In this document: positions 10,104 through 45,174 of the stretch, one piece after another
How positions within the stretch are numbered: position 1 is the stretch's first letter
Layout of the letters: every line of letters starts with the position of its first letter
Translations under genes and position numbers: made by a program
Source: an uncultured bacterium
GTDB taxonomy: Bacteria > Myxococcota_A > Bradymonadia > UBA7976 > VGTA01
Assembly (NCBI GenBank): GCA_943788935.1
Contig: CALSSE010000014.1
Span: 22,682 to 86,681, forward strand
Length of the DNA: 64,000 nt
Reading direction: 5' to 3'
The notes under the pieces: model-generated
Told to the model about the DNA's origin: nothing
Database searches by the model: none
Seen by the model: the letters and a program-made list of their open reading frames with translations, nothing else

Positions 10104-10913
10104 CTATCGATGAGTGCTATCGAAGATCTGATTGGCGTTGCCGGCGACGAAGCCCTCAAAAAGTATCCCGCTAGGGAGCGGGTAGCGGAGCGCGAACTCA
10201 TAGAAACAGGTGGGAACCTCAGCCTCAGTCCCACAGGCAAAGAGATACGGTCGGCGATCAGCGAGGGTAGAGGATTGGGCAAGATACACCTCAGACCCCC
10301 CTTTGATGAGACCTCCGACTTGGTTGAGAGCGAAATCTCGATCGAGCAGAAAGCGATTGACCTCTTGGAGTGCACTCAGCCCCTTTAAGTGGTTCACCGA
10401 GACGGTGAAGTGATTAGCGGTGAGCCCCATGGTCGCTAGCCACCCCGCGTACTCACTCTCTGCGGCAAGGCTTAGATAATCGGCATGACTCGGTGTGGGC
10501 CACGCTAACCCTCGATAGAGATCTCTGAGACTCAAGTCAGTAATATGGCACTGGGCGAGGAGCTGCTCTATGATTTGCTGTTGCTTATGCGGAAGCTCAG
10601 CCCGTCTCAGCTCACTAGCGAATATTTTGGGGGCCAAGGGGTCATCAGCGCGGAGGGCGATCGCGTTGAGATGCTTGTCTGGAAAATCATAATGAGCAAA
10701 GGGATGATAGCCAATCTGAGAGAGGACTCGACACAATGAGTCGAGATCGATAGGGCTCTGGTCAAAGGTGCGAAAGGCGACGTGGTCATTCACCACCACC
10801 TCTCCTCGCTCTAGAAAGAGTCGCTCGATGGTGAGCGCTTGCGGGGTATGCTGGGTATAAGATGCCCATAGCTCATTAAAGAAGGTGTTTTGGTTCATTT
10901 GCTCATGGTTCAT
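10104..10913 (-). CDS. DUF1338 / 2-oxoadipate dioxygenase-decarboxylase (HglS-like) family protein
   Basis: VVNDHVAFRTF, ESEYAGW, ANHFTVSVN, LAQSSTLAD, FYEFALRY, FEGFVAGNANQIFDST. Confidence 0.85.
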   Translation of the reverse strand: MNHEQMNQNTFFNELWASYTQHTPQALTIERLFLERGEVVVNDHVAFRTFDQSPIDLDSLCRVLSQIGYHPFAHYDFPDKHLNAIALRADDPLAPKIFASELRRAELPHKQQQIIEQLLAQCHITDLSLRDLYRGLAWPTPSHADYLSLAAESEYAGWLATMGLTANHFTVSVNHLKGLSALQEVNRFLLDRDFALNQVGGLIKGGSEVYLAQSSTLADRRPYLFACGTEAEVPTCFYEFALRYPLPSGILFEGFVAGNANQIFDSTHR

Positions 10914-12680: not shown

Positions 12681-13197
12681 CGCCTCACTCACGATGAGCT
12701 GAGGTTAAGACAAGAGCGGTCCCTCTCATCGCTTGATTCACGACTTGAGATCATCGTACAGTTTTACTCTGAGGCTGTTTCAACTCTGAGGTGCTCAGTC
12801 CTCGCAAGCGCTCTCAACTTCGCCATAAAAGTTGATATTCACCGCCTCACCGACTCCTGTGTAAGCACTCATCGGAATGACTGTGCCTACGGCGGGCGTT
12901 ACCAGCCCCGAGATAACCAGCAGCTGGCCCATGAGTAGAAGAGATCGATGGCGCGTTGTCTGTGATCTCCATGTTGAGGTTTAAGTGTTCCTTAATCGCT
13001 ACTTGCGCGAGACTCGCTAGAAAAGACAGGGGGTATACTCAACTCACTTAAGAGACGCTCTAGCTCAGCTCCGTAAAATGAAATAACTTAGTTAAGAGTT
13101 TTATTTATCTAGATTGAATCATTAAACAAAGAGATTGCATGCTCTCACTATTTAATGTGAACTTTAGCTCTAAACTAAACCACTATTGGGAACGTGT

Positions 13198-15441
13198 ATG
13201 AATAGAAAAGTGTACCTATATTCATTAGGGTGCCTCATATTAATGATGGCATGTATAGATAATGCGACTTACCCGCTAGGCGGTGGTGATGACACCGGAG
13301 GAGCGAGAGCGAACATAAGTATCGCTGATCCTCGTGATGGGGGAAATACTTTTGAGAGTGCCGGCGAGAGGGCCGGCGAGAGTGCCGGCGAGAGTGCCGG
13401 CGAAAGTGCCGGCGAAAGTGCCGGCGAGAGGGCCGGTGAGAGGGCTGGTGAAAATGCTAGTGAAACCGCCGGTGAAATACCTGAGCAAGAGATTCGTTCC
13501 CCAAACATCATACTCATATTTGCTGATGACTTGGGATATGGCCACTTAGGGAGCTATGGTCAACGTGATATCCTCACACCTCATCTCGATCGATTAGCGA
13601 ATGAGGGAGTAAGGTTTACTCATTTTTACAGTGGGTCATCCTTCTGCCCACCCGCGAGGACATCTCTGCTGACAGGTTTGCATGGCGGTCGTATTCCAGT
13701 AAGACAGGTTGGCATCTATGATGATAACCAAGTCATTTTCCCAAGAGAGTTACAGGCCGCAGGTTATCGAACCGCTTTATTCGGAAAATGGGGCTTTAAC
13801 ACACACCAAAGAGGAGAAGAGATACGTGGTCCTGCCCCCACATCTCTTGGCTTTGATGAGTTTGTCGGGTTTCTCACCCATCGTGATGCTCATATGTATT
13901 ACCTTGATGGGACCGGGACAAACGGTAATAACCCTGTGGCTCAAACCCTGTTTGAAGGTGTAGGGGATTCACTGCAGCCATTAAATGTCTCCCCTGACCG
14001 TTATCTCCCTGATGAATTTCTTGATCGAGCGCTGCAGTTCATTGAAGAGAACAAAGATCAACCATTCTTTCTTTACTTTCCCAGCCAGCTACCTCATGCA
14101 GAGCTTGTTTCTCCACCTGAAGGGCTCGAACCTTATGTAGTGAATGGTCAGAGCATATTCTCGGAGAGTACTTTTGCGGGTAATCCTGCTTACCCCGATA
14201 CCGTGACTCAACCCTATGCGACCCTCGCTGCGATGATCTCACGCTTTGATCGCGATGTAGGTCTATTGATGGATAAGGTCAATGCTCTCGGCCTCGATTC
14301 AAATACCATTATTATAGTAACTAGCGATAACGGACCACATGTCGCAGGGGGTATTGTTGATCATAATCAGCTCAATGGCGCCCCTGGACTCTCGGGAAGA
14401 AAATTTGACCTATTTGAGGGGGGGATACGTGTTCCTCTAATCGCGAAATGGCAAGGGCAGTGGCCTTCAGCCTCCGTGATAGAAGGTCGCCACGCCTTAT
14501 GGGATATAGCGCCAACATTGAGAGAGTTAGCCGGAGTATCTCCACAACCTTCTGATGGTTTATCACTAGTGAGCAAGTTACAAGGCCAAGGGGGAATCAG
14601 TCATCAAAGGCTCTATTGGGAAACATATGCGTATGGAGGACAAAGTGTACGCACTGAAAACGGTTATCTTCAGCAAGAGGCAGCGATGATTCAAGACAAT
14701 ATAAAAGTGATTCGCGTCACTGAGGAGTACACGGGGAGTTATATCATCGCTTATGATCTCTCTCGAGGGGACCCCATAGAGACAATAGAGATGAGTATCG
14801 CTAACGATCTAGATAGCTGCCAATGGCTCCCTGATATCACTGAACAGCTTAATCAAGCTCATCAAGATGTAGAGGATGGCATTTTACCTCCAATACGGGC
14901 AATCTGTCAGCAAATTGGAGGTCAGGGTAATGATATTATTACCGGGATGAGTGGAGATGAGCGCCTCATCGGTCGAGGAGGAGATGACGAACTAAAGGGC
15001 CTAGATGGCGATGACGAAGTCTATGGCGGTCCCGGCAATGACAACCTGAATGGAAATATCGGGGAGGACTTTGTTCAAGGAAATACAGGGAACGATATCG
15101 TACATGGAGGACAGGGTAATGACACAGTTCGGGGGGGAAAGGGCGATGATGAGATCTATGGGGATCGAGGGAATGATACCCTTTATGGAGATCGCGGGAG
15201 TGACATCGCTTACGGTGGCGAAGGTGATGATATCTTCATCTATGAACGTTTTCATGACACCTTCACTATCTACCCCGACGAGTCAGGTATAGATGAGCTA
15301 CGCTGTATCGATGTTAGAGCCACGAGTGAGACCTATGAAGGTGCCGACCTCGTCTTGAGAATGGAGGCGAATGGGCTCATTAGACTCGTCAATCATCTAA
15401 ACAGCCCTACTATTGAGACTATTATTGATTGCAGGCCATAA
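13198..15441 (+). CDS. Arylsulfatase-family lipoprotein with AGE-repeat linker and C-terminal RTX Ca-binding repeats
   Basis: Lipobox LMMAC; PNIILIFADDLGYG; Cys-type CPPAR (CxPxR) followed by SLLTG; GKW, TSDNG, EGGIRVP; GGxGND nonapeptides near the C-terminus. ATG 13198 is preferred over TTG 13186. Confidence 0.92.
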   Translation: MNRKVYLYSLGCLILMMACIDNATYPLGGGDDTGGARANISIADPRDGGNTFESAGERAGESAGESAGESAGESAGERAGERAGENASETAGEIPEQEIRSPNIILIFADDLGYGHLGSYGQRDILTPHLDRLANEGVRFTHFYSGSSFCPPARTSLLTGLHGGRIPVRQVGIYDDNQVIFPRELQAAGYRTALFGKWGFNTHQRGEEIRGPAPTSLGFDEFVGFLTHRDAHMYYLDGTGTNGNNPVAQTLFEGVGDSLQPLNVSPDRYLPDEFLDRALQFIEENKDQPFFLYFPSQLPHAELVSPPEGLEPYVVNGQSIFSESTFAGNPAYPDTVTQPYATLAAMISRFDRDVGLLMDKVNALGLDSNTIIIVTSDNGPHVAGGIVDHNQLNGAPGLSGRKFDLFEGGIRVPLIAKWQGQWPSASVIEGRHALWDIAPTLRELAGVSPQPSDGLSLVSKLQGQGGISHQRLYWETYAYGGQSVRTENGYLQQEAAMIQDNIKVIRVTEEYTGSYIIAYDLSRGDPIETIEMSIANDLDSCQWLPDITEQLNQAHQDVEDGILPPIRAICQQIGGQGNDIITGMSGDERLIGRGGDDELKGLDGDDEVYGGPGNDNLNGNIGEDFVQGNTGNDIVHGGQGNDTVRGGKGDDEIYGDRGNDTLYGDRGSDIAYGGEGDDIFIYERFHDTFTIYPDESGIDELRCIDVRATSETYEGADLVLRMEANGLIRLVNHLNSPTIETIIDCRP
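13354..13476 (+). repeat. Coding 12-bp repeat (E-S/R-A-G), about 10 units
   Basis: GAGAGTGCCGGC variants in tandem. Confidence 0.9.
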
Positions 15442-17248: not shown

Positions 17249-20200
17249 CTACTCTATTCGTTTGCTTCCATTGACTGGAAGTGTCGGAGGTAGAGAAGGT
17301 ATTATAGGAGTCGAAGGAGCTGAAGCCGAAGGAGACCTAGTATCTTCATAGGCTTTTACCGACATCTTTAAGGCTTCTTCAAGAGTACGACCCATACGCG
17401 CTACTCCACGGAACACTACAACAACACGCTTCAATTGAGTGACCGGGTTTTGTTGTGAACGGATATATAGAGGCTCCACATAGACCACTTCATTACCGAG
17501 CAGGAGAGCGGTAGTATGACCTCTAATAACATCTGTACCCACACGGTTCCACCAAGAGATCTGCTCTGAGATCTCAGGGGTCTGATCAATCGCGGCGTCA
17601 GCTTGCTCAATCCCCGGATAGAAGTAGCCCTTAGGGACTTGAAGGGCGACCAAACGCCCATAATCTTCACCGTCTTGATAAGCTAGAGGGATGCCACGTA
17701 GATTGAGCGCTTTCTCTGGACTAAAGACCATGCCGAGAGCGAACTGAGTCTTCTCCTTAGCAGCGGGAATGACCCCCTTTCCTGTCTCTAACATGAAGGT
17801 ATAAGGCTCATTTGAGAAGGTGATCGCTTTCCCTTGGTCTAGGACAGGTCCAAGAACCTCATCGCCATCATCCCAAAGGTCCTCTTGGTTGAAGAAGTAC
17901 ATCGGGTCATTGGCATGATAATAAATGAAGAGATCATCAAACTGTAAGTGGAATAGGTGTATGGGGTAGGTGAGATGTTCCTTAATAGAAGTGGGCATCT
18001 GATCCTTGGGTGTAAATAGACCAGGATAAATGCTCGCCCAAGTGTTAGAGATCGGATCATCTGAAATCTGATAAAGAGTGATATCACCTGTCGTCGAGTC
18101 GACAACCCCCTTTACTGAGTCACGTACCCAGTTCACTTTTCGCCATTCACGAGCGAAAGGGGTGGTGTCATGAGATTTATCACCTAAGTCACCATAAGCT
18201 GAATATGGGTAGCGATCAGTGGTAGTGAGAGCATTGATCATCCATTTGAGCTTTCCTTCATTAGCTATAGCAGTAATGTTCGTGTCATAGTATAGGAAGG
18301 GTGCCACTTTCTGAACGCGCTCGAGAGGAGTACGATAAAAGTGCACTCGGGTGTCATCTTTGATCAAATCGGAGAATATGATATCCGAGAATTGACCACT
18401 TCTCCAACCAAACGCTAGTCGTTTGATGAAGCTGTCTATTTTGACGCCCACTTTAATATCTTGTGGAAGCTCAAGCTCAGCGCGATCTTGTTGGGTGGGG
18501 AAGTCAAATTCTTTAACCTGATCGACATTAGAATAAGCCATTGAAGAGGAGCCCTCTCCATAGTAGATACGAGGGTTATCCAACTTAAACATATCATGGT
18601 CACCGCTATGAGGGATCCCACCAGCCATGAAGTTCGGTACGCCCTCTTCTGTAATTTCTCCAGAAGGCGCAGCAACAAAACCATATCCATGAGTGAACAA
18701 CATGAATCTCTGACCAAACCAAGCGAGCCATGGATAAGGCTCAATCAATGGGAGTTCACGCACACCACTGACAAACATTCGCTTCTCGCCATCAATTTTA
18801 TAGCGAACGTTGTCTATTCCAAGGAAGTTATAGTAGGTACGCAACTTCTGATATTGTCGGAATATCTCTAAAGAAGGGCCATAGATCGTCGCATCACCTT
18901 GAGTACTTAGAATACGTTGAGAGTGCTGAGGATCCAAAAGACGCTCTAAATAAACGGTCTTTCCAGGCCAGAGTGGCGCATTGCGCAGTGTAGAGCTGCT
19001 CAGCATTTCCTCTATATTGGGAATCGGTTGGTCTTGGTAATTAGGTTCGTAGTTGACCTCTTCAACCTTATCTAGTCCGTATGCCTTGCGCGTGGCTTTT
19101 AGATGTAAATCGATATACTTTAACTGAATGACGGGCTCGTTGGGCTCGATCGACGTTGTATCTCTTATGCTGACAGCACCTCTCATGCCGAAGTCACATG
19201 CTAAGAGAATGAAGGTCGCAATTACGCTTTTACGGAAGAGCGCTCGCTCATCTGATTTAATCGCTCTAAAAAGCATAACAATCGCGATGGTCACTCCTAA
19301 GGTGACCAAGGTACTGAATCGCAGATAAGATAGAGTAGAGAAGAAACCGGTGACATCTAGTGCTTCAGCTCCTACATAAATCGCAGAGCTTTTATTGTCT
19401 AGAAGCACAAGATCAAAAGCCCCGAGGAAGCGATGATAAGTCACTGCCAACCCGAATAGGGCTAACGAAATGATCGTACTGTTGTTGGCGATCGACTTGA
19501 AGAAGTAATGAAATCTAGAGCCATCTACTTGTTCGGCACGAGTGACCCATGCACAACCGATAGCGGATATCGCTCCCAAAAAAGTACCCCAGAGGAGCGT
19601 TTCCGCAATCGTCCAGAATACTGGGACATCATAAATATAAAATCCTACATCCCGATTGAAGATCGGGTCGGTTTCACCAAAAGGGATTCCGCCATAGAAT
19701 AAAAATGTTTGGTATTTTAAGCTGAGGAAATAACCGCTGATCGAACCAATAAGGATCGCAAGGTAAATCACAAATTTACGTTGATGGACTGCTAGGGGAT
19801 TAGCAAAGGCTGGTACTAGTATTCCCAGACCTAGTAAAATCGATCCGACCAAGAAGAGTGTTGTACCCATCCAGAAATTGGTATTGAAAACACTCTCTAA
19901 ACCTAAGCTCTGTAATAGCCAATAGTCAAAGGCGAGAAATGAGAGCTGATCTAAGAAAAACAGTGCGCAAAAAGCAAGACCTACAACTAAAAGTCTGCTC
20001 CATAACTTACCGCTGTCGGGTCTTATAAAGTGCTGATATTTACTCTCGCTATCGAGGGAGGTAAAACGAGCTAAAACTTTACGAACATCTAGCGACCTTC
20101 TCTGTTGGAGAAGAGTAATAAAAGATACACTACTGTAAGATACATATCTAAAGAAATTGTCTAGGACTGCGATAGTGACACATTCGTGAAATGCGGTTCC

Positions 20201-21112
20201 ACTCATCCACAAAGTAGCCGCAAATGCCCACTCGAACTGACCGATACCACCAGGTGTAATGGGTAACTGACGTGCCAATGCACCCGCAATTAAGGCCATC
20301 AATAAAACACTAGGATCAATGTGTAAGATCACGTTGTCTGAAGTGAAAGCCATCGCCGTAAAATAAGCAGCGATATCTTCAAGCAGGAAACAGCCCATCG
20401 AGAGGAGTATCATACTTATGGTACGTCCCGGCTGATTTAGCATCCCTTTGATGATCTCTACAGAACGTGTATATATCACTTGACGTATGTCGGCTGAGGG
20501 TCTGGTTACGAAATAGCAGACCCCAAAGATCACGAGGCCCCACCAAAGGTAACTGATCCAAGCACTCCACCCCAAAATAAACAATGCGATCAGAGCAAAG
20601 ATAAAGATCTCTAACCACAATAATATTGATCGCCCAAGCGCTATGGAGTGAGCTTGCTCCTCAGATGCGCCTTCTGTTTCGAGTGAGTGACGTATAGAAT
20701 GACTATCCATTCTGAAGGGCATATAAAGATTATTGATTAATCCCGCTGCTACGTGGCGTGAAGAGTTTCCTTTGGAGGTATATCCAAAATGGCGAGAGAG
20801 AATACTGAGCTGTATGCTCCTCAGCCAGAAACAAAGAAAAAAGCAACCAACGAGTAGACCAACTGTATTCCAACGAATGGGGTCCATCGCCAGCATATAG
20901 AGTTTGAGATCAGCTATTCCCTCAATAAAACCTGCATCCATATCGTGATATTGGATCAGTCCGGAGTTAATCAATAATGATAACAATCTGGTGTTGGCAA
21001 CAAAGTCCCACGCAGGAGCATAATAAATGAGTGAGGAAAACATCGCAATCATTGTGATTATTGATGCGACCAACCCCCATCCTAAACTAGGAGTATACCT
21101 TAACTTATTCAT
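17249..21112 (-). CDS. Fusion of an LPG-synthase-TM (UPF0104, flippase-like) domain and a UPF0182 (COG1615) membrane protein
   Basis: N-terminal ~340 aa are multi-TM with LPITPGGIGQFEWAF. UPF0182 motifs follow: FGETDPIFNRDVGFYIY, PNE...YI..H..ATRKAYGL, FRQYQKLRTYYNF, FTHGYG, PRIYYGE, RVQKVAPFL, NWVRDSVK, YVEPLYI...QLKRVVV. Confidence 0.88.
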   Translation of the reverse strand: MNKLRYTPSLGWGLVASIITMIAMFSSLIYYAPAWDFVANTRLLSLLINSGLIQYHDMDAGFIEGIADLKLYMLAMDPIRWNTVGLLVGCFFLCFWLRSIQLSILSRHFGYTSKGNSSRHVAAGLINNLYMPFRMDSHSIRHSLETEGASEEQAHSIALGRSILLWLEIFIFALIALFILGWSAWISYLWWGLVIFGVCYFVTRPSADIRQVIYTRSVEIIKGMLNQPGRTISMILLSMGCFLLEDIAAYFTAMAFTSDNVILHIDPSVLLMALIAGALARQLPITPGGIGQFEWAFAATLWMSGTAFHECVTIAVLDNFFRYVSYSSVSFITLLQQRRSLDVRKVLARFTSLDSESKYQHFIRPDSGKLWSRLLVVGLAFCALFFLDQLSFLAFDYWLLQSLGLESVFNTNFWMGTTLFLVGSILLGLGILVPAFANPLAVHQRKFVIYLAILIGSISGYFLSLKYQTFLFYGGIPFGETDPIFNRDVGFYIYDVPVFWTIAETLLWGTFLGAISAIGCAWVTRAEQVDGSRFHYFFKSIANNSTIISLALFGLAVTYHRFLGAFDLVLLDNKSSAIYVGAEALDVTGFFSTLSYLRFSTLVTLGVTIAIVMLFRAIKSDERALFRKSVIATFILLACDFGMRGAVSIRDTTSIEPNEPVIQLKYIDLHLKATRKAYGLDKVEEVNYEPNYQDQPIPNIEEMLSSSTLRNAPLWPGKTVYLERLLDPQHSQRILSTQGDATIYGPSLEIFRQYQKLRTYYNFLGIDNVRYKIDGEKRMFVSGVRELPLIEPYPWLAWFGQRFMLFTHGYGFVAAPSGEITEEGVPNFMAGGIPHSGDHDMFKLDNPRIYYGEGSSSMAYSNVDQVKEFDFPTQQDRAELELPQDIKVGVKIDSFIKRLAFGWRSGQFSDIIFSDLIKDDTRVHFYRTPLERVQKVAPFLYYDTNITAIANEGKLKWMINALTTTDRYPYSAYGDLGDKSHDTTPFAREWRKVNWVRDSVKGVVDSTTGDITLYQISDDPISNTWASIYPGLFTPKDQMPTSIKEHLTYPIHLFHLQFDDLFIYYHANDPMYFFNQEDLWDDGDEVLGPVLDQGKAITFSNEPYTFMLETGKGVIPAAKEKTQFALGMVFSPEKALNLRGIPLAYQDGEDYGRLVALQVPKGYFYPGIEQADAAIDQTPEISEQISWWNRVGTDVIRGHTTALLLGNEVVYVEPLYIRSQQNPVTQLKRVVVVFRGVARMGRTLEEALKMSVKAYEDTRSPSASAPSTPIIPSLPPTLPVNGSKRIE

Positions 21113-21643
21113 ACAATAGAATTCCTTAACCTAAAAGTAGTACATATATAAACGTGCCATCACTAGTACACTTTACAAATCATGTCAAATAGAATCGCGA
21201 GGTTCTTGTGCTTAAAAAAACAACCTGCTGTAGTCCATTAAAGACTTTAAAGTGACCCCCTAGGCATCTAGCATATTTACCAAGAATCTTGATATACAGG
21301 ACAGTATATCTTTATAAACATGTGTCATATTGATACTTGTAGAATATACGATAACAATATGCCGCAATATGCCGCCTAAATGCCTTTTTATCATAAATGC
21401 ACATAAAAAACGACTCATTCTCAAAGAGTCTTCCAAATTTAATAGAAAATACCCAGCTGAGATGTATAATTCTCCTCAATTATATACATATATATCCTCA
21501 GTAAACAGTGCACAAATTATGAAATAATACACCTAAGCAATCTGCCTAAATAATCTAAGCATTAAACTTTACTTTCAAACCTCTTGATGTTAGAAGTTAA
21601 AAGGTCATTCTCAAGGTAGTGACTTTGAAAGTTGGGTAATACA

Positions 21644-24600
21644 ATGAAGAATATAATACATAAGAGTTTTCTAGCCTTAGCACTTATTACATTTGGTGCG
21701 TGTCAAGAGAAAATAAATCTCAACACAAGTGAACCATCAGTGAATGACGACCAAGATGGTGATGGGTACTCTAGCGTCGTGGACTGTGATGACAACGATC
21801 CCACAGAGAGACCCGGTGTTATTTGGTATACCGACACTGACGGAGACGGCTTCGGAGATGAAGGAGCCTCACAGGAATGTGAACGTAACGATAACAGTGA
21901 CGTCTTGGTCGCTGGTGACTGTGACGACACTGACGAGACTCTAAATCCTAATGTGACGTGGTATGCTGACGTCGATGGTGATGGGTTCGGTGACCCTCTT
22001 CAAGAAGCAAACTGTAAACCAACCGTTTCTCCATCAGTGTTAGACGGGACAGACTGTGATGATAATGATTCCACAGAATATCCAGGTGTCACATGGTACA
22101 TAGACGCTGATGAAGATGGGTTTGGTAATCCTAACTCCAGTAACGAGTGTGAACGTTCATATAGTACAGATGTACTCGTAGGCAATGATTGTGATGATCT
22201 CTCATCAGAGGTTGGTGACGATGCAGTTTGGTATGCTGACGTCGATGGTGACGGTTTCGGTGACCCTAGCTCGAGCACCGCTTGTACTCGCAATGCTCCT
22301 TCTGATGTTTTAGATAACACTGACTGTAACGATAATGAAGCAGGTCAATACCCTGGTATCACTTGGTATGCTGATTCAGATGGTGATGGATTTGGTGATC
22401 CTGACGTCAGCAATGATTGCGAGCCTAATGCGGCCTCCGATATCTTAGATAACACTGACTGTAACGATAATGAAGCAGGTCAATACCCTGGTATCACTTG
22501 GTATGCTGATTCAGATGGTGATGGATTCGGCAACCTAAGTTCCCCCAGTTTCTGTGAACCCAATGAGCCCTCTGATGTCCTGGATAATACTGACTGTAAT
22601 GATAACGCATCGGATCAATACCCAGGTGTCATTTGGTATGTTGACTTTGACAGAGATGGCTTTGGTGATCCGAGTACCGGCTCTGAGTGTCAACCTCTGT
22701 ACTTATCAGACGTAACGAATAACACCGACTGCAACGATACTGACGCTGAACTGAATCCGTTGATCACCTGGTATGCTGACTCCGATGGAGATGGGTTCGG
22801 TGACCCTAACGTCAGTAATATATGCGAGCCGAATAACCCTACAGATATTCTGGATAACACAGATTGTGATGATACTAACGCCGCTTACTACCCTGGCTTA
22901 GTTTGGTACGTCGACGCTGATGGAGATGGTTTTGGTGATGATGCTCGATCATCGCTCTGCAACCCCCAAAATCCAACGGATACTCTGATAAGCGGAGATT
23001 ATGCTGATGATAACATTAATCGTTTTCCCGGAGCTACCTTCGATATAACAGGCACCGCCTCAGGCATATACAAAGGTGCTCCTCCAGTCCTCGTCATTTT
23101 GGATTCAAGTGACTCATATGAGGTGAGTGGAAGTGGTCCCTTTACTATCCCTGATGCAGTTGTTGACCTTGAGAGCTATCAAATCTCTATCGATAGTTCA
23201 GCGAGTGGTCTGAATTGTAGTCTCGAAGGAGCTGACGGCGTTCAAGAAATTCAAGGGTTTGACTTAAATATAACGATCTCATGTGAGTGTGTTTATGACC
23301 ATACAATCATCAACCTCGGCTTTGCTCTTGTTGACGATTCTTGGGAAGACGAGAACCAATTCTTTGACATCAATGATCTCGGAATGATCCTCTACCGCAG
23401 TGAAGAAGAGAGTGATCAAGGGAGTCTTAAGTGGAGGTGTGGAAATCGAGCCTTCACCGTAGATAGCATTGGATCCTTAGTTGGCATTGAAATACCGGAT
23501 GATACCACTGGAGAGCTTGTTTCGGCTGATGCACAGATTGAAGGATTTGGAGCTCGACGAGCGATTAACAACGACGGAGATATCGCTTATGTTGCTGAGA
23601 TCATGCCTGCGGATGATGCCAGTTTCAGCCTTAGAAATGAGCCTGGAGTAATCTACACGGGATATCCGAGTAACTTCAGAAAAGAAGTGATCAGGCGAGG
23701 TGAACAGATGGGACCCATAGAGGAGATCTATGGTGGTTCTGGGACTGAGGTAAGTATTAACTCAAACGGTCAAATCGCTTTCCGAGCTCATACTCAAGAT
23801 GATGACGACATCGAATATATCGGCATTTATGAATCTGATACTGAAACAATCAACTATTTCATTGACTTCCCTACGACAGATGCTGATGAAATGTGGTTAT
23901 CCGATATCAATGAGCGAGGTGAAGTACTCGCATTAGCAGAAGATTACATTGAAGATGGGTCTAAGAAGCTCTATCGATTCGGGAACCCAGTCGGATCAGA
24001 GCTCCTCGTACAGGAGTTCGACCCGATCCTCGACTTCTTCACGACTAGGATCAGTAATCCTCGCTTCAACGATCAAGGGGAGATCGTGATGGTTCTTGGC
24101 CATTGCCCAACTCTCATCGAAGCAGAGGCTCTTGCTGATACCAGAGACGAGAGTTGCTTGATAGAGGAGACTACTTTAGAAGTATCTAACCAGTGGGGCG
24201 ATAGCACGAGGCTGGTGAAGGTCTACCATGAATCCTTGATGTTTTGGAAAGACGGGGCCTTTCAAGAGATTGCCCGCGCAGGTTCCACTATTGATGGTAT
24301 CAGGATTGAAGGTTTTACGCCTTTCATCGACATCAACAATGTAGGTGAGGTCGCCTTCATCGTAGGTGAGTATGGAGTGTCCCGAGTGGTAGAGGGAGCT
24401 AGTAACACTAGCGGTGATGAGATCAGTCATCTATTTAGATGGTCATCTGATCAAGGTCTAGAGTTGGTGAGCCGTAACCTGGATATTATTGGTGACTACT
24501 CACTGGTAGAGCACCAATTCGTTGACATCACGGATGACGGCTCGATTTTCTTCAAGGGTAGTAATGCTGCGGATGACGACCAACATGCTATTTTCTGTAA

Positions 24601-25894
24601 TCATCCAGATACTGGGACACATATGCTGATCGGAGAGGGTCTGTTTTTCGATAATCAGCATGTAGAGACCATCACCATGGGAGAGCTTAACTTTGATCAC
24701 AACACGAGTGAAATAGGACGAGTTGCGGTCCCCGTTAAGTTCTCCAACCGTCCGACTCAAAACCTAGCATTACTCGAATGTGAATCCCAACCGATCACTT
24801 CAGAGAGAGTGATTGAAGATATCTGTGATGATGAGATTGATAACGATGGCAACGGTGTAGCTGATTGTGATGACTCTGCTTGCTCTTCTGAGAGAACCTG
24901 TGGCAGAGACCTACCCGTCGATGACGAGCAAATCACGATTGAAGGTTCTCTCTTGTACCTTGCAGATCCGATCTGGTGGCGACCCAATGCTGATTGTACA
25001 CCTCACGCAGATAACGATGAATCTGATCCTAATTCAGGACTCTATCTATATGACGCTTATTGGTTCACGAACACCACCGACCAAGAAGTCACGGTGACCG
25101 CCAACGCAACCTTCTCAGATGACGGCTACCTACATGTATTTAACTACCTGTCAGCGACCGATGAGGTAGAATGTGTCCGAGGAAATGATGACTATCTTAG
25201 CCGATTCCAAAGCACAGTGACTGGGATCACTGTAGCGCCAGGCGCTGAGATCGTGATTTATGTCTCGGTGAGTGAGCCGGGAGAGGTCTCAGAATATACG
25301 CTTGAGGTGACCCCTTCAAACGAAGAGATCTGTGACGACGACATAGATAATGATTTGAATGGCGCCTTTGACTGTGCTGATCAAATCGCTTGTGAAGCAC
25401 CTGAAGGGTGTAACGAGCTCTGTGATGATGGTCTTGATAATAATGGAGATACACGTATTGACTGCGATGACCCCAGATGTGCTTTTGATAGTGCCTGTGA
25501 AATCGTGGCTCCTCTTGACGAAAATATCATTAATATTACAGGACAGATCAATCAAGATGATTTCGTGTGGAGTCGCCCTAACAACGCCTGTGTCATTGAA
25601 AATATCAATGCACAATACTTCTATGATGCGATCACTTTGACTAATACCGATGCCATCTCTCATGAATACACGGTAAGCGTTGAATGGTCACCACCGAGTC
25701 TTGGTGGATTTACTGATGGATATATTCATATTTACGATAGTTTATTTACGACCTGTCTTCTTGGTAATGATAATGAATCAGACGAGAGTAACAGCGCGAT
25801 CACATTTACAGTCGATGCCAATACCTCAGTCGTCGTAGTCTTGAGCTCTTATGACCAAAGCGCTGTTATCGACTACTCTGTTACGATTCAATAG
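21644..25894 (+). CDS. Large modular lipoprotein: ~9 WY-x-D-x-DGDGFG (MopE-type) repeats, NxxGxxAF beta-propeller-like repeats, EICDD/DNDG repeats, two PPC-like beta domains
   Basis: Lipobox TFGAC; 45-aa repeats; INNDGDIAY, INSNGQIAF, INNVGEVAF; two WxRPN...YxYD...DGYxH...GND domains. Confidence 0.85.
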   Translation: MKNIIHKSFLALALITFGACQEKINLNTSEPSVNDDQDGDGYSSVVDCDDNDPTERPGVIWYTDTDGDGFGDEGASQECERNDNSDVLVAGDCDDTDETLNPNVTWYADVDGDGFGDPLQEANCKPTVSPSVLDGTDCDDNDSTEYPGVTWYIDADEDGFGNPNSSNECERSYSTDVLVGNDCDDLSSEVGDDAVWYADVDGDGFGDPSSSTACTRNAPSDVLDNTDCNDNEAGQYPGITWYADSDGDGFGDPDVSNDCEPNAASDILDNTDCNDNEAGQYPGITWYADSDGDGFGNLSSPSFCEPNEPSDVLDNTDCNDNASDQYPGVIWYVDFDRDGFGDPSTGSECQPLYLSDVTNNTDCNDTDAELNPLITWYADSDGDGFGDPNVSNICEPNNPTDILDNTDCDDTNAAYYPGLVWYVDADGDGFGDDARSSLCNPQNPTDTLISGDYADDNINRFPGATFDITGTASGIYKGAPPVLVILDSSDSYEVSGSGPFTIPDAVVDLESYQISIDSSASGLNCSLEGADGVQEIQGFDLNITISCECVYDHTIINLGFALVDDSWEDENQFFDINDLGMILYRSEEESDQGSLKWRCGNRAFTVDSIGSLVGIEIPDDTTGELVSADAQIEGFGARRAINNDGDIAYVAEIMPADDASFSLRNEPGVIYTGYPSNFRKEVIRRGEQMGPIEEIYGGSGTEVSINSNGQIAFRAHTQDDDDIEYIGIYESDTETINYFIDFPTTDADEMWLSDINERGEVLALAEDYIEDGSKKLYRFGNPVGSELLVQEFDPILDFFTTRISNPRFNDQGEIVMVLGHCPTLIEAEALADTRDESCLIEETTLEVSNQWGDSTRLVKVYHESLMFWKDGAFQEIARAGSTIDGIRIEGFTPFIDINNVGEVAFIVGEYGVSRVVEGASNTSGDEISHLFRWSSDQGLELVSRNLDIIGDYSLVEHQFVDITDDGSIFFKGSNAADDDQHAIFCNHPDTGTHMLIGEGLFFDNQHVETITMGELNFDHNTSEIGRVAVPVKFSNRPTQNLALLECESQPITSERVIEDICDDEIDNDGNGVADCDDSACSSERTCGRDLPVDDEQITIEGSLLYLADPIWWRPNADCTPHADNDESDPNSGLYLYDAYWFTNTTDQEVTVTANATFSDDGYLHVFNYLSATDEVECVRGNDDYLSRFQSTVTGITVAPGAEIVIYVSVSEPGEVSEYTLEVTPSNEEICDDDIDNDLNGAFDCADQIACEAPEGCNELCDDGLDNNGDTRIDCDDPRCAFDSACEIVAPLDENIINITGQINQDDFVWSRPNNACVIENINAQYFYDAITLTNTDAISHEYTVSVEWSPPSLGGFTDGYIHIYDSLFTTCLLGNDNESDESNSAITFTVDANTSVVVVLSSYDQSAVIDYSVTIQ
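22310..22527 (+). repeat. Recent 135-bp-period duplication inside the MopE-type repeat array
   Basis: About 83 bp (TTAGATAACACTGACTG...GATGGATT) are identical at 22310 and 22445. Confidence 0.85.
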
Positions 25895-25970: not shown

Positions 25971-26798
25971 ATGCAAATCAAACGAACCTTTACTCTCTCT
26001 CTATCTGTCTTTTCGATGCTTTTGTTGGGCCTCTCCCAATCTCATGCAGATGATGGGGTCACTAGACCTTCGACTGGTCCCTATTCACAAGCAGAAAGCT
26101 CTTCTCAAAAGCCCAAGGTGAAGTTCGCTTCGCCATCGAGCCAAGACCCTCGTGGCTCCTTGAAGAATTTCAACTCAAAACGAGTGGGGTCTAAACTTCG
26201 CAAGGTGAAGAGTGATGAGTATGAACTTCGTCTCAAGATCACTCAAACACTTCAAGAATACCAAGGGGTCGAGTTGATCTGTCCAAGCGGCTTTCAGGAT
26301 CATCAAAGAGTGATTAAAGGGTTTGCTACTTGGTCTAAGGTACCCAAGGAAGTATGTAAGTTACAGTTTAAGGGAGGTGGACCTCCTGATATCTACCAAA
26401 GCGCTACCCACGGTGAGTCTCTATTGTGTCAGTCTGATGCTCAAATCATTAAATGCCAATCAGTATCACGTGAAGAGCTTATGGCGGAAGCGTCTCAGAC
26501 ATCAGATTCGCCTCTAGTACTCACCTTGGTCGCTCCCTACTCTCATACTAAACTAGTGGTGACCTGTAACGACCAAGTTCTATTTCAAGAATTTGTTAAT
26601 GAAACTAAGAGCAAAGAAGTCTTCTCTTACAAGATCCCCAAGGAGGGCCGATGTGAAGCGACTCTGAAGGGAGGGGGTAAACCGTATACCATCCAACCTT
26701 TAAATGCAGGGATGCGCGTAACCTGTACTCGTGGATCAGCAAAGAGCGGAAGGCCTAAGTCCAAAATTTCGCCTAATTGCGAGTTTGAAAACTACTGA
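25971..26798 (+). CDS. Secreted hypothetical protein with two copies of a small Cys/KGGG domain
   Basis: Signal peptide ending SHA; VELICPSG...VPKEVCKLQFKGGGPP...LLC and LVVTCND...IPKEGRCEATLKGGGKP...VTC. Confidence 0.7.
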   Translation: MQIKRTFTLSLSVFSMLLLGLSQSHADDGVTRPSTGPYSQAESSSQKPKVKFASPSSQDPRGSLKNFNSKRVGSKLRKVKSDEYELRLKITQTLQEYQGVELICPSGFQDHQRVIKGFATWSKVPKEVCKLQFKGGGPPDIYQSATHGESLLCQSDAQIIKCQSVSREELMAEASQTSDSPLVLTLVAPYSHTKLVVTCNDQVLFQEFVNETKSKEVFSYKIPKEGRCEATLKGGGKPYTIQPLNAGMRVTCTRGSAKSGRPKSKISPNCEFENY

Positions 26799-26965
26799 GA
26801 CCTCTTCGACTACACTTAAGGTAATAAAGCGATATCTTCGAGACTAGGTCTCTAAAGATTAGGTCCATCATGAACCATATCAGATTAACTTTTACAGCTC
26901 TACTCCTACAGATTCGAATCATCAATTCGACAGTTTCAACACTCTATTTATTCTAGGAGTCATTG

Positions 26966-29359
26966 ATGAAAATATATATTATTTTAATCTTTACGCTGTT
27001 GGTTGAGATATCTAATGCCTCTGCAGAATGTGGCCAGGATATAATTGACTCAACCTATGAAGCCGATACTTCAGATTCAGTGGTTCGCCTAACAGAGATA
27101 AGTCTTGATAATCAAGACGATAGTTTCTCTCAAGCTCAGGGGATTGATTATGTCGTTGAGCTCAAGCTGTTAGGAGGAGAAACTTACACCTTTGAAACTC
27201 TTGAGAGTGAAGATTTCGATCCAGTATTAACTCTCTTGGTACACGATCAATGTGAAAACCTTATAGAACACGAGAGTAATGATGACTCAACCGGTAATAT
27301 ACCGAATGATAACTATGAGTCATTTATTGAGTACACCACGCCTCTCAGAACAGATGGTCAATACCTGTTATTAATCTCTGGACTCAATGAGATGACGGGA
27401 ACCACTAACCTAGAGATCAAACGCTTTGAGGCTGAGTTACCTGAGATGAATGGCGTTATTCTCACTGGAGATAGTATCACCGGTTGTCACTCTATGGCCG
27501 GATCTTACTCTTCGCATAGCCTTTTTCATCTTATTAGTGTTTTACTCCTTCTGTTATTGATCGCTCGCCGATTTACGATAATGAAATATGTGCGCACTCG
27601 TATCGCTCATTTTTTACTCTATTTTGTGCTACTCGGTAGCGCTCTTTCTCTGCTTGCTCCTGCCTCTGCCTCAGCTGAATTAAATGGCTTTTCAGTCATG
27701 AACTTTCGGCTCGCTTTAGGAACAAATCGTATTATCTCTCTTGAGACAGCAGGTGTTCCCGATCATTTGAATGTATATGGGGGAACATCTTATCATTATG
27801 CTAGCCAGCTTCTACAAGAGAAGACGATATCCTCTAGCCAAACTCAGGAGAGAAGTTTACTAAGTTCACAAACTTTTCAACAGTTTGGAGTGGGAATTGG
27901 GCTCTTTGATCTGGTTGCTCTAGAGTTCAATATCCCTGTTATATACACAAACCAAGGTGATGAGACTCTTTTTCCAGCATTAGGGACAACCCCTCGCGGT
28001 GATTCTCTCGCGCGGCTTCGCTTCTTAATCGCTGGTTCAAATACAGGAGCTTGGGGCCTAAGTGGAAGTTTAGCGACCACTTTACCCACGGGAGATAGCG
28101 CAGGACTGACAGGAGATGAGGGGGTTCAAACCTTACCTACTCTGACCGGAACTCATCGACATAATGACTTTATCACGAGCGTTTCTCTTGGCGCCTTAAT
28201 CAGAACAGAGACCGATGATAATGTGCGTGGCTTATCACTTGGTCAAGAGATGACTTATGGAATAGGGACCAGCTACCAATGGACGGATAGTATACTCTCT
28301 GGCGTTGAATTTGTAGGACGTAGCGACTTATCTGACTTTACTTATCAAAACCCCTTAGAGGTCATTTTAGGATCCCGTATAGGGCTCTGGGAACAGCTCT
28401 TCTTTGAGGTTGGCGGAGGAGCCGGGCTTATCTCTGGATATGGGACTCCTCTCTGGAGAACCTTCGCTGCTCTACAATGGCATCCTGAGAGCACTGATGT
28501 TAAAGACCAAGATCAAGACGGTATTCTCGATCAAGTGGATCAATGTCCTCTGCAACCTGAAGATCGAGATGAGTTTGAAGATGAGGATGGATGTCCTGAC
28601 CCTGATAACGATCAAGATCAAATTCTCGATCAAGCAGATCAGTGTCCGCTTAAAGCAGAAGATAAGGATGGGTTTGAAGATGATAATGGATGTCCTGACC
28701 TCGATAACGATCAAGATCAAATTCTCGATCAAGCTGATCAATGTCCACTCAAAGCAGAGGATATAGATGAATTTGAAGATGGGGACGGATGTCCTGATCT
28801 TGATAACGACCAAGATCAAATCCTCGATCCAGCAGATCAATGTCCGCTCAAGGCAGAAGATAAAGATGGTTTTGAAGATACAGACGGGTGCCCTGATCTC
28901 GATAATGATCAAGATGGAGTGCCTGACAGTAACGATAAATGTCCACTTAAAGCTGAAGATGGCATAGGGGATACACCAAAAGATGGGTGTCCATCAGCGT
29001 GTCGTATCTCCATCCCTGGGCAAGTGCTCTTTGCTAACAACTCAGCTGAGCTCAAAAAATCAAGTTATATTGAGGCTCAAAAGATCGTTGATTACTTGAA
29101 GACCTTGAAGAACTTCAAAGAGATCATTGTTGAGGGGCATACAGACAACGTAGGCTTCGCATATGCTAATCTTCGGCTCTCTCGCAAACGAGCCAAAAGG
29201 TTTGCGGCTGTACTGCGTCAAAAGATAAAGAACTCAACAATAAGTATTAAAGCTGTTGGCTTTGGGTTCAACAAGCCCATCGCTAGCAATGATACCCCAG
29301 AGGGGAGAGCCAAGAATCGTCGCGTCTCGTTCCGTATCATCGGAGGCGTGTGTAAATAA
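26966..29359 (+). CDS. PPC-like domain, internal CTERM-like anchor, second signal peptide, then beta-barrel/TSP3/OmpA (TraB-like) outer-membrane protein
   Basis: Signal ending ASA; FDPVLTLL...SNDD (PPC-like); GC...LLLLLLIARR; MKYVRTR...ASASA; barrel with GYGTPLWR; DxDxDxIxDxxDxCP TSP3 repeats; VEGHTDN...LSRKRA...GFGFNKPIASNDTPEGRAKNRRV. AGGAG RBS. Confidence 0.88.
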   Translation: MKIYIILIFTLLVEISNASAECGQDIIDSTYEADTSDSVVRLTEISLDNQDDSFSQAQGIDYVVELKLLGGETYTFETLESEDFDPVLTLLVHDQCENLIEHESNDDSTGNIPNDNYESFIEYTTPLRTDGQYLLLISGLNEMTGTTNLEIKRFEAELPEMNGVILTGDSITGCHSMAGSYSSHSLFHLISVLLLLLLIARRFTIMKYVRTRIAHFLLYFVLLGSALSLLAPASASAELNGFSVMNFRLALGTNRIISLETAGVPDHLNVYGGTSYHYASQLLQEKTISSSQTQERSLLSSQTFQQFGVGIGLFDLVALEFNIPVIYTNQGDETLFPALGTTPRGDSLARLRFLIAGSNTGAWGLSGSLATTLPTGDSAGLTGDEGVQTLPTLTGTHRHNDFITSVSLGALIRTETDDNVRGLSLGQEMTYGIGTSYQWTDSILSGVEFVGRSDLSDFTYQNPLEVILGSRIGLWEQLFFEVGGGAGLISGYGTPLWRTFAALQWHPESTDVKDQDQDGILDQVDQCPLQPEDRDEFEDEDGCPDPDNDQDQILDQADQCPLKAEDKDGFEDDNGCPDLDNDQDQILDQADQCPLKAEDIDEFEDGDGCPDLDNDQDQILDPADQCPLKAEDKDGFEDTDGCPDLDNDQDGVPDSNDKCPLKAEDGIGDTPKDGCPSACRISIPGQVLFANNSAELKKSSYIEAQKIVDYLKTLKNFKEIIVEGHTDNVGFAYANLRLSRKRAKRFAAVLRQKIKNSTISIKAVGFGFNKPIASNDTPEGRAKNRRVSFRIIGGVCK

Positions 29360-29460: not shown

Positions 29461-29793
29461 TCAGAGAACGACCAAAACCATCCCTACTGACATGAGAATA
29501 AAACCCAAGGTTTTGGAGGGATCAAGCACTTCTCCGAGAAAGTACTTTGATACAATAGCGACGCAAATGACCCCTGTGCAGAGGTTTATGGAGGCCATCT
29601 CACTTGGCTTATAAAACTCAATCCCCCAACGCATGGCGAAAACATTGAGTAAGTATTCAGGAAGAACTAAAAACCAACTAAGTGTAAGAGCAGTAGAGAA
29701 TGGTTTATTTTTAAACTTTATATGGCCTAACCATGCAAAAGCCATTAAGAAACTTGACATAAAAAGGAGAATTGGAACTATATATATACCCAT
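29461..29793 (-). CDS. DMT-superfamily small 4-TM protein (DUF486/DMT_6-like), subunit B
   Basis: MAFAWLGHIKF, SWFLVLPEYLLNV.A.RWG, FLGE motifs; 110 aa. Confidence 0.85.
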   Translation of the reverse strand: MGIYIVPILLFMSSFLMAFAWLGHIKFKNKPFSTALTLSWFLVLPEYLLNVFAMRWGIEFYKPSEMASINLCTGVICVAIVSKYFLGEVLDPSKTLGFILMSVGMVLVVL

Positions 29794-30198
29794 TTAGTTA
29801 CTCTCCATAGCTTTCAGACTCTCTGGGTTCTCAATTTTCTTTGCTCCAGTGATAAGTATCATCGCTACAGTCATGAGAGCAAAACCGATATATTTTCTAG
29901 TCGTCAGCGCCTCACCCAAGAAAAAATGGGACACAAGAGCGATAAAGATAACGCCCGACGAAAGATTCATCGCTGCCATTTGACTAGGGGTGTATTTTTT
30001 TATTCCCCAACGAATAGCAGAAATATTCAGAAGGTACTCCGGTAGAACAATAAACCAAGCTGCTAAAGTTGCTGTCCAAAAACTAAGATTCTCCTTATAC
30101 TTTAAGTGCCCAAGCCATGCCGCCGCCATAATGGCGCTAGAAAGTGTGAGCATCAATGGAACCATATATTTTATATGTTTATCTTTATTGTCATTCAT
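29794..30198 (-). CDS. DMT-superfamily small 4-TM protein (DUF486/DMT_6-like), subunit A
   Basis: MAAAWLGHLKY, AWFIVLPEYLLNI.A.RWG, FLGE. Directly abuts its paralog. Confidence 0.85.
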   Translation of the reverse strand: MNDNKDKHIKYMVPLMLTLSSAIMAAAWLGHLKYKENLSFWTATLAAWFIVLPEYLLNISAIRWGIKKYTPSQMAAMNLSSGVIFIALVSHFFLGEALTTRKYIGFALMTVAMILITGAKKIENPESLKAMESN

Positions 30199-44794: not shown

Positions 44795-45174
44795 CTAGGC
44801 TATCTCAAAGTGATCTTGAACATTTAGCCAAACATTAATTAGCCGGAATTTGGACTTTAAAAAGCTCTCAGTTTGTCTAGGTGATCGTTTAAACAGGAGC
44901 CTTAAAGTAAGCGCTGTTTTAATAGATAGATCGCAGTATAATTCAGGTCTACCCATTCTCTGATTTAGGTCACTATTCCAAGATTGAATGACATTTTCAG
45001 AAAGCCACAGAGTGAAATCACCACGATTAATTAAAGACTGCTCATATGAACACCAAGTATGAACTTTATATCTCTTTTGGTATTTTGGATACCTATACCG
45101 TTGATGTAGCTGAGTCATGTATTTACTCCTCAGACTTTATCTTACACCAATCGGTAGACTTATGCACCAACGCC
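44795..45174 (-). mobile_element. Truncated IS5-family (IS903 group) element: left end plus N-terminal transposase fragment
   Basis: YKVHTWCSYEQSLINRGDFTLWLS...GRPELYCDLSIKTALTLRLLF...RQTESFL. End GGCGTTGGTGCATAAGTC resembles the IS903 IR GGCTTTGTTGAATAAATC. No DDE core remains. Confidence 0.88.

What the first reader, a model, noticed from the sequence alone, without database searches (positions are those of the whole stretch)
17249..21112. Rosetta-stone fusion: flippase-like LPG-synthase-TM domain joined to UPF0182
Seen: one 1287-aa ORF with a ~340-aa multi-TM N-part carrying the LPITPGGIG-x-x-E signature, then a complete UPF0182 protein. Known: UPF0104/LPG_synthase_TM domains occur in MprF and AglD-type proteins linked to lipid or lipid-sugar translocation, while UPF0182 is widespread, usually stand-alone and of unknown function. 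Inference: UPF0182 may act on a flipped lipid-linked substrate in an undescribed envelope-modification pathway, possibly with the DMT pair 8 kb upstream on the same strand.
Basis: partly seen in the sequence, partly recalled or inferred. Interest (0 to 1): 0.7.

Follow-up and report, generated by a model that had tools for sequence, protein, structure and literature searches.

The report
Flippase paired with UPF0182 protein
One gene joins an MprF-type lipid-flippase domain to UPF0182, a widespread membrane protein of unknown function; the same two parts sit fused or side by side in bacteria of nine groups, so they likely work as one membrane machine that would give a first test of whether UPF0182 handles lipids.

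Summary
The fusion is real: a 1287-aa ORF on the minus strand hits PF03706 (47 bits, cut-off 33) and PF03699 (455 bits). It is not an assembly quirk. It is one form of a conserved pair. In 65 genome loci the partners are fused in 13 and adjacent in 39 (both gene orders); the other 13 are cut by contig ends. In an independent flippase-centred scan, 43 of 44 informative loci have UPF0182 adjacent. Ordinary UPF0182 genes lack this partner. The N-part is predicted to fold as MprF subdomain 1 (Z 20) and keeps gate-like Pro/Glu/Arg residues. Its model with the UPF0182 helices has pTM 0.88. The UPF0182 outer domain matches no solved fold, so a GT-C or transglycosylase fold was not found. The DMT pair recurs in 1 of 145 loci, and no lipid glycosyltransferase recurs. 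The recurring partners are an ArsB-like transporter (37 of 65; absent from this genome) and lineage-specific exported proteins, including this window's divergent DUF7453 lipoprotein. Best reading: one membrane complex that likely flips a common phospholipid, at about 40%. Substrate and purpose are untested. I found no description in the papers searched.

The parts
17249..21112 (-). Fused gene, 1287 aa: PplT/LPG_synthase_TM flippase-like domain + divergent UPF0182
   Evidence: 33 homologs with both domains
20105..21091 (-). Flippase-like domain, aa 8-336; predicted helix pattern matches MprF subdomain 1 (TM1, H1, TM2, 3a/3b, 4-6, 7a/7b, 8)
   Evidence: PF03706; model; VIA-align to MprF 6lvf_B Z 20.3, rmsd 4.4, 271 aligned; Foldseek top six all MprF
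20873..21016 (-). Conserved loop after TM1, aa 33-80, inferred to face outward (W35, R42, L44, G51, D57, G61 each in 70-76 of 77 sequences)
20231..20254 (-). PGGIGQFE motif, aa 287-294 (P287 and E294 in 77 of 77); inferred equivalent of RtMprF Pro273 and gate Glu280
   Evidence: PMC8131360 passages; equivalence by motif spacing only
20147..20149 (-). R322 on the last flippase helix (Arg in 69 of 77); inferred partner of E294, like RtMprF Arg304
19151..20014 (-). UPF0182 membrane part, aa 367-654, seven predicted membrane-spanning helices
   Evidence: model; PF03699
17339..19150 (-). UPF0182 soluble domain, aa 655-1258, inferred outside the membrane; subfamily-specific inserts at aa 716-742 and 978-987; no solved fold match
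21632..25894 (+). Divergent acidic protein of 1420 aa with a lipoprotein-type signal (read from the sequence) and a DUF7453/NxxGxxAF-repeat region; the only DUF7453 gene found in this genome; likely accessory member of the module
   Evidence: the same family lies beside the module in 13 of 65 and 15 of 80 loci
25971..26798 (+). Small exported Cys-containing protein of 275 aa; its homolog follows the NxxGxxAF gene in the closest related locus L006, and the same domain ends the L006 ArsB-like protein; possible accessory member

Best explanation
The flippase-like domain and the UPF0182 protein are encoded together, fused or as neighbouring genes, and likely form one membrane complex in which the flippase half is predicted to move a common phospholipid to the outer leaflet, beneath the large outer UPF0182 domain. 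Shown: the gene pairing across phyla, the predicted MprF subdomain-1 fold, and conservation of Pro/Glu/Arg at gate-like positions. Predicted: the seven UPF0182 helices pack against the flippase in a fixed way. Inferred: they take the position that subdomain 2 holds in MprF, where it walls the exit cavity, though they do not share its fold. Because no lipid-making enzyme travels with the module, the substrate is likely a housekeeping lipid rather than a dedicated lipid-sugar. The ArsB-like transporter and the exported acidic proteins are likely the module's other working parts or clients, in an envelope or ion-homeostasis role. Rough odds per step: physical complex 0.8; flippase half still moves lipid 0.55; UPF0182 outer domain itself handles the lipid 0.25.
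For: Pairing: 13 fused, 39 adjacent (20 flippase-first, 19 UPF0182-first, at most 142 nt from the first stop to the second profile match) and 13 cut by a contig end, of 65 loci. 43 of 44 flippase-centred metagenome loci with 400 nt on both sides have UPF0182 adjacent. In 201 genomes of one class the same 7 hold the flippase subfamily and the divergent UPF0182, and the 5 with an intact ordinary UPF0182 hold no such flippase. Control: no partner within 1.5 kb of ordinary UPF0182 in 27 Chloroflexota genomes. Fold: MprF Z 20.3 and 19.6 against a next best of 8.2. Gate: P287 77/77, E294 77/77, R322 69/77, Asp or Glu at 246 57/77, against the RtMprF P273, E280-R304 gate and D234. Model of aa 1-690: pLDDT 91.9, pTM 0.88 over two halves of about 330 aa. 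In RtMprF the outer cavity is walled by subdomain 1 plus subdomain-2 helices.
Against: No activity, substrate or binding was measured. The pTM comes from one linked chain with no control, and I could not inspect coordinates, so the subdomain-2 position is positional inference. The equivalence to MprF residues rests on motif spacing; no sequence alignment to MprF was obtained. The N-part scores below the TIGR00374 cut-off (21.8 vs 43.2), so it is divergent and may have changed function. Ordinary UPF0182 proteins work without this partner, and the preprint ties them to FtsH/YccA rather than to lipid handling. The model does not explain the ArsB-like transporter. Some loci (L059-L061) hold the three membrane genes with no homolog of the recurring exported families, and the window's genome lacks the transporter ortholog (genome 91% complete). 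One locus, L167, has the flippase with no UPF0182 in 778 nt downstream. Loci include close kin and near-duplicates.
Confidence: 0.4

Rival explanations
1. UPF0182 is a scaffold or quality-control adaptor for membrane proteins, as proposed for actinobacterial UPF0182 with YccA and FtsH. This subfamily is specialised for two clients, the flippase-like protein and the ArsB-like transporter, and never touches the lipid.
For: bioRxiv 10.1101/2025.11.14.688347 section 9 reports phenotype correlations with ftsH (r 0.80) and yccA and a predicted tetramer dome with YccA inside. Ordinary Chloroflexota UPF0182 genes are often followed by other small membrane proteins (Yip1, SpoIIM, unnamed 4-5 TM). The top weak fold hits of the soluble domain include YpeB C-terminal domain, YpmB and a protease propeptide (Z 4.1-4.9, not significant).
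Against: No ftsH-like or yccA-like family appeared among the recurring neighbours. One AAA gene was seen in L043 and not identified further. A general adaptor would not need one fixed partner kept through gene-order reversal. It does not explain the exported proteins that co-occur with the module.
Confidence: 0.27
2. The module handles an inorganic solute (a metalloid oxyacid such as arsenite, antimonite or silicic acid, or another anion). The ArsB-like protein moves it, the flippase fold is repurposed or accessory, and the UPF0182 head and acidic exported proteins bind or deposit it outside.
For: An ArsB-family transporter (PF02040, E 1e-38 to 1e-67) lies beside the pair in 37 of 65 loci and in the same 7 of 201 genomes. 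This UPF0182 subfamily has gained conserved acidic residues (D998, D1059, D1081, D1082, D1084, E1133, E1169, D1172). Most of the partner proteins checked are acidic. Search listings show ArsB/Lsi2 relatives used for silicon transport in sponges and plants.
Against: The transporter is below ArsB cut-offs, and no arsR, arsC or arsM family was seen among scanned neighbours. It is missing from 8 of 9 well-flanked fused loci and from this genome. The flippase gate residues are kept.
Confidence: 0.15
3. One reading: the flippase moves a dedicated lipid-linked sugar, UPF0182 is a GT-C-like or transglycosylase-like enzyme that transfers it, and the DMT pair supplies precursors.
For: Both domains are confirmed. 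PF03706 is fused to glycosyltransferases elsewhere (PplT preprint). UPF0182 has invariant polar residues on the outer side (D482, D488, D586, H808, H1066, D1069). The DMT pair lies next to the fused gene in L028 at 84-85% identity.
Against: DMT pair in 1 of 145 loci, and no homolog of the window's GT2 gene in any. No GT2/GT4 family among neighbours scanned. The DMT-L028 link looks like shared recent transfer.
Confidence: 0.06

Closest known systems
MprF (aminoacyl-PG synthase/flippase; PDB 6LVF, 7DUW, 9J8Q)
   Same: Predicted subdomain-1 flippase fold (Z 20.3, 271 residues); Pro, Glu and Arg at gate-like positions; further membrane helices follow directly in the same chain.
   Different: No aminoacyl-PG synthase domain. 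The following seven helices belong to UPF0182 and did not align to subdomain 2. The large soluble domain is inferred to be outside, whereas MprF's is cytoplasmic. There is a long conserved outer loop after TM1.
PplT/YbhN stand-alone and fused PF03706 proteins (bioRxiv 10.1101/2022.03.11.483950; AglD-type fusions)
   Same: Same Pfam domain, occurring alone or fused to a partner.
   Different: A discrete divergent subfamily (120 clusters at 50% identity; below the TIGR00374 cut-off) tied to UPF0182, not to lipid-making enzymes. The part of the preprint read does not name this architecture, though its CDART count of 148 architectures may include it.
Ordinary UPF0182 (MSMEG1959, cgp_0896; bioRxiv 10.1101/2025.11.14.688347)
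   Same: PF03699 over the full model; seven membrane helices plus a large outer domain.
   Different: Separate clade (98-100 support against Chloroflexota ordinary copies), at about 430 bits against the 995 cut-off of PRK00068. It has its own inserts and acidic residues, a fixed flippase partner and a patchy spread. The FtsH/YccA link was not tested here.
ArsB arsenite/antimonite efflux pump (TIGR00935) - for the module's third gene, which this genome lacks
   Same: PF02040 family; best NCBIfam matches are ArsB models.
   Different: Scores of 162-272 bits against a cut-off of 415; no ars-operon genes seen beside it.

Membership tests
PF03706 / PplT flippase-like domain | Pfam PF03706 above gathering score | tested here: met
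   47.1 bits vs 33.4
PF03706 / PplT flippase-like domain | MprF subdomain-1 fold with two inverted re-entrant motifs | tested here: met
   predicted model, VIA Z 20.3, rmsd 4.4, 271 aligned, model 9-362; Foldseek
PF03706 / PplT flippase-like domain | Gate Glu-Arg pair and preceding Pro | tested here: met
   P287 77/77, E294 77/77, R322 69/77; matched to RtMprF P273/E280/R304 by spacing, not by alignment
PF03706 / PplT flippase-like domain | NCBIfam TIGR00374 cut-off | tested here: not met
   21.8 bits vs 43.2; 63 of 77 members match weakly
PF03706 / PplT flippase-like domain | Lipid translocation activity | not testable with these tools
   needs an assay
MprF | Aminoacyl-PG synthase domain in the chain or beside it | tested here: not met
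   only PF03706 and PF03699 in the protein; none among neighbours scanned
MprF | Subdomain 2 fold (TM9-14) | tested here: inconclusive
   the MprF alignment spans model 9-362 only; the UPF0182 helices were not folded and searched alone
AglD-type GT2-flippase fusion | Glycosyltransferase domain fused to PF03706 | tested here: not met
UPF0182 | PF03699 above gathering score, full model | tested here: met
   455 bits; model positions 3-770
UPF0182 | Seven membrane helices plus large soluble domain | tested here: met
   models; feature as stated in the preprint
UPF0182 | Ordinary-subfamily cut-offs (PRK00068, PRK02509, PRK12438) | tested here: not met
   427/995, 373/949, 249/1254 bits
UPF0182 | Tetramer dome binding YccA, FtsH link | not tested
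   too large for the complex tool, which was also unavailable
GT-C glycosyltransferase / lytic transglycosylase | Fold match of the UPF0182 part | tested here: inconclusive
   soluble domain best Z 4.9, no Foldseek E below 0.001; the 604-aa model was searched whole
ArsB arsenite pump (module's third gene) | TIGR00935 / PRK15445 cut-offs | tested here: not met
   6 of 6 tested below cut-off

The most novel reading that the evidence does not exclude
This is an undescribed, horizontally spread envelope machine. An MprF-type flippase hands a phospholipid directly to the UPF0182 outer domain, which has no solved fold and uses it to modify or anchor a dedicated exported protein (NxxGxxAF-repeat or DUF11-like type), with an ArsB-like transporter moving a substrate or by-product. 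It would define a biochemical activity for the whole UPF0182 family, including the copy conserved in Actinobacteria.
Probability: 0.2. Interest if true: 0.85.

Novelty: new variant of a known kind. Interest (0 to 1): 0.6.

Why it matters
UPF0182 is described as universal in Actinobacteria and tied to polymyxin sensitivity, adhesion and iron phenotypes, yet it has no known activity; the only current model is a predicted FtsH-related scaffold. A clade welded to a lipid-flippase fold gives a direct, competing test: does UPF0182 handle lipids, or hold membrane clients? The module also offers a new context for stand-alone PplT flippases, whose missing 'subdomain 2' may come from a partner. Cultured strains carry compact versions (Limimaricola soesokkakensis CECT 8367, Thiohalocapsa halophila DSM 6210, Sorangium So ce315), so it can be tested now.

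Tried and rejected
Assembly artefact: rejected (33 homologs with both domains; reads).

DMT pair as partner: 1 of 145 loci. Window GT2 gene (34423-35583) as partner: no homolog in 145 loci.

Solved relatives by sequence: none for the whole alignment or the flippase alignment, and none useful through a stand-alone PF03706 gene of this genome. Fold of the UPF0182 soluble domain: no match (Foldseek none at E 0.001; VIA best Z 4.9; Atlas nothing once PF03699 clusters were left out). This shows neither a new fold nor exclusion of any. The UPF0182 helices hit only generic bundles, Z up to 8.2.

A shared target motif between the two exported families: the profiles are unrelated (hhalign probability 0.3%), and only a mild excess of [DE][DE]ES was seen (0.6-0.8 vs 0.16 per 1000 aa), against a poorly matched background. 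Fission from the fused form: neither shown nor excluded (fused-only clade p-AU 0.097). GC and GC3 as a transfer signal: the fusion is lower than the genome median, but so is trpS. Promoter and terminator scans were at chance level. Expression: RNA-library runs hold the stretch but only as contigs, so nothing is shown.

The controlled complex prediction for a natural split pair was not available, so direct binding has no controlled test. A first mixture-model tree did not finish; LG trees were used. Earlier findings by sequence and by words: none.
Full report
Observation. Window 17249-21112 is a single 1287-aa ORF on the minus strand. Pfam finds PF03706 at aa 75-326 (47.1 bits, cut-off 33.4) and PF03699 (455 bits). 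The genome has no other UPF0182 gene and two other, stand-alone PF03706 genes. A search with aa 20-345 among proteins of 707-2253 aa returned 33 hits, all with both domains. Assembled reads agree: one X1 contig spans the gene with no difference inside it (X1 may be the source), and an X6 contig from another study covers most of the linker unchanged. One X4 contig at depth 2.6 lacks a base at 17261, near the C-terminus. The organism is probably a marine myxobacterium.

The fusion is one form of a conserved pair. A scan of GTDB genomes kept the best 80 of 101 stretches, giving 65 loci in nine named groups; a few loci share a genome. Thirteen are fused (one with an in-frame stop, two cut or broken), 39 are adjacent genes and 13 lack a full partner. 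All of those 13 have 132 nt or less on one side. The adjacent pairs are 20 flippase-first and 19 UPF0182-first. Because that scan could have dropped flippase-only loci, I ran a flippase-centred scan of metagenomes (best 80 of 90). UPF0182 was adjacent in 61 of 80, and in 43 of the 44 with at least 400 nt on both sides; many of these loci are near-duplicates. The exception is L167, and L175 has two flippase genes around one UPF0182. The flippase subfamily is discrete and mostly stand-alone in length (120 clusters).

Controls. Of 60 other Chloroflexota genomes, 27 have ordinary UPF0182. None of their 29 loci (1.5 kb flanks) hit the subfamily or transporter profiles, and none of 15 flanking ORFs scanned hit PF03706. 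In 201 genomes of the class of G106, the same 7 hold the flippase subfamily, the divergent UPF0182, the ArsB-like ortholog (54% identity or more; next best 30%) and the NxxGxxAF protein. The 5 genomes with an intact ordinary UPF0182 hold none of them. Two of the 7 were already among my loci, one (G114) is unpublished, and the 7 may be close kin. None of 40 relatives of the window's genome has a match, so the gene is sporadic there.

History. The subfamily is one clade against ordinary Chloroflexota copies. Fused plus UPF0182-first forms are separated from flippase-first forms with 100/99 support. Whether the reversed order arose by fission of the fusion is open (p-AU 0.097). The 26- and 30-row trees used subsets of the 55 sequences. 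The spread over phyla is patchy, consistent with transfer but not proof of it.

Other partners. An ArsB-family transporter lies beside the pair in 37 of 65 loci, some as fragments. Among 25 well-flanked loci it is in 12 of 16 split and 1 of 9 fused. It scores below ArsB cut-offs, and this genome has only a distant relative. Exported proteins recur by lineage. NxxGxxAF/DUF7453 proteins occur in 13 of 65 and 15 of 80 loci (the profile was seeded from eight of them, and TIGR05002 hits seven loci independently). An unnamed, DUF11-like family occurs in 9 of 65 and 4 of 80, never with the transporter. In 151 genomes of the family of G108 that family and the flippase occur in the same 3. The window fits this pattern: its divergent neighbour 21632-25894 is the genome's only DUF7453 gene, and 25971-26798 has a homolog in the same position in L006. 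Some loci, such as L059-L061, show the three membrane genes with no homolog of these families. The DMT pair recurs in 1 of 145 loci. No GT2/GT4 glycosyltransferase, aminoacyl-PG synthase or ars gene family appeared among 30 + 32 cluster representatives and 92 further flanking ORFs, which were cut to 450 aa and drawn from 57 of the 65 loci.

Structure. The model of aa 1-690 has pLDDT 91.9 and pTM 0.88. Its first half matches MprF (Foldseek top six; VIA Z 20.3 and 19.6, next 8.2). Passages of PMC8131360 describe the Glu280-Arg304 gate, Pro273, Asp234 and an outer cavity walled partly by subdomain 2. Here P287 and E294 are invariant in 77 sequences, R322 is kept in 69 and position 246 is acidic in 57; the match to MprF residues is by spacing only. 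The UPF0182 part has seven helices and then a 604-aa domain (pLDDT 87.3, pTM 0.89) with no fold match. The subfamily adds inserts at 716-742 and 978-987 and several acidic residues.

Mechanism. I judge it most likely (0.4) that the two halves form one complex, the flippase moves a housekeeping phospholipid outward, and the UPF0182 helices sit where MprF subdomain 2 does, under the outer domain. The pairing, fold and residue conservation are results. The packing is a prediction. Lipid movement, substrate and purpose are inference.

Literature. Searches: 'UPF0182' gave 12 papers; 'UPF0182' with 'flippase' gave 2, and in the one I checked the word refers to a DedA protein. PF03699/IPR005372/COG1615 and NxxGxxAF/DUF7453 gave none. 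PF03706 terms gave 17, none on this pairing by title or abstract start. What I read: bioRxiv 10.1101/2025.11.14.688347, outline, passages and section 9; bioRxiv 10.1101/2022.03.11.483950, part 1 of 3; passages only of PMC8131360, PMC3582634, PMC7231039 and 10.64898/2026.01.04.697598; search listings only for the silicon papers. I saw no supplements; those of the two preprints could list this architecture. Most subscription papers and InterPro/CDART were not searchable.

Verdict. Real, conserved and apparently undescribed: a new variant of the PplT/MprF flippase theme that ties a distinct UPF0182 clade to a flippase. Interest 0.6.

Noticed in passing
window 29461-30198 and L028:12546-13283: The DUF486/DMT pair is 84-85% identical to a pair next to the fused gene in a Planctomycetota MAG, although the fused proteins are only about 47% identical; this suggests recent transfer of the pair.
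   Followed up: partly
L027:12927-15434, L070:403-3888, L055:4224-7256 and 10 more loci: Unnamed exported protein family with a duplicated DUF11-like domain and strongly conserved Lys/Ser motifs; found only with this module where tested and never with the ArsB-like gene.
   Followed up: partly
L073, L076, L078, L079, L089, L091 (Chloroflexota): Ordinary UPF0182 genes are often followed by a 4-5 TM protein of about 200-280 codons; one is Yip1-like, the others have no Pfam hit.
   Followed up: no
L095:1-4191: An ordinary UPF0182 in an open frame of about 1430 aa with a long N-terminal extension that has no Pfam hit in its last 500 residues.
   Followed up: no
L175:462-6240; L028 and L041: One locus has two flippase genes flanking one UPF0182; one Planctomycetota MAG has two fused copies.
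   Followed up: no
L012, L018, L020, L032, L035, L050, L056 and others (13 of 65 loci): Right-handed beta-helix exported proteins recur beside the module in Acidobacteriota and Gammaproteobacteria; a small membrane protein of about 120-140 aa recurs in 4 of 65 and 8 of 80 loci.
   Followed up: no
L026:13147-15884, L037, L046, L059, L060: A two-component kinase/regulator pair follows the three-gene operon in several unrelated loci.
   Followed up: no
window 10104-10913 (-), 13186-15441 (+), 26963-29359 (+), 44795-45118 (-), 55242-63962 (+): HGLS-family dioxygenase/decarboxylase; sulfatase with RTX repeats; TraB-like OmpA/TSP3 protein (below cut-off); DDE transposase fragment; 2906-aa PA14/EGF protein.
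   Followed up: no
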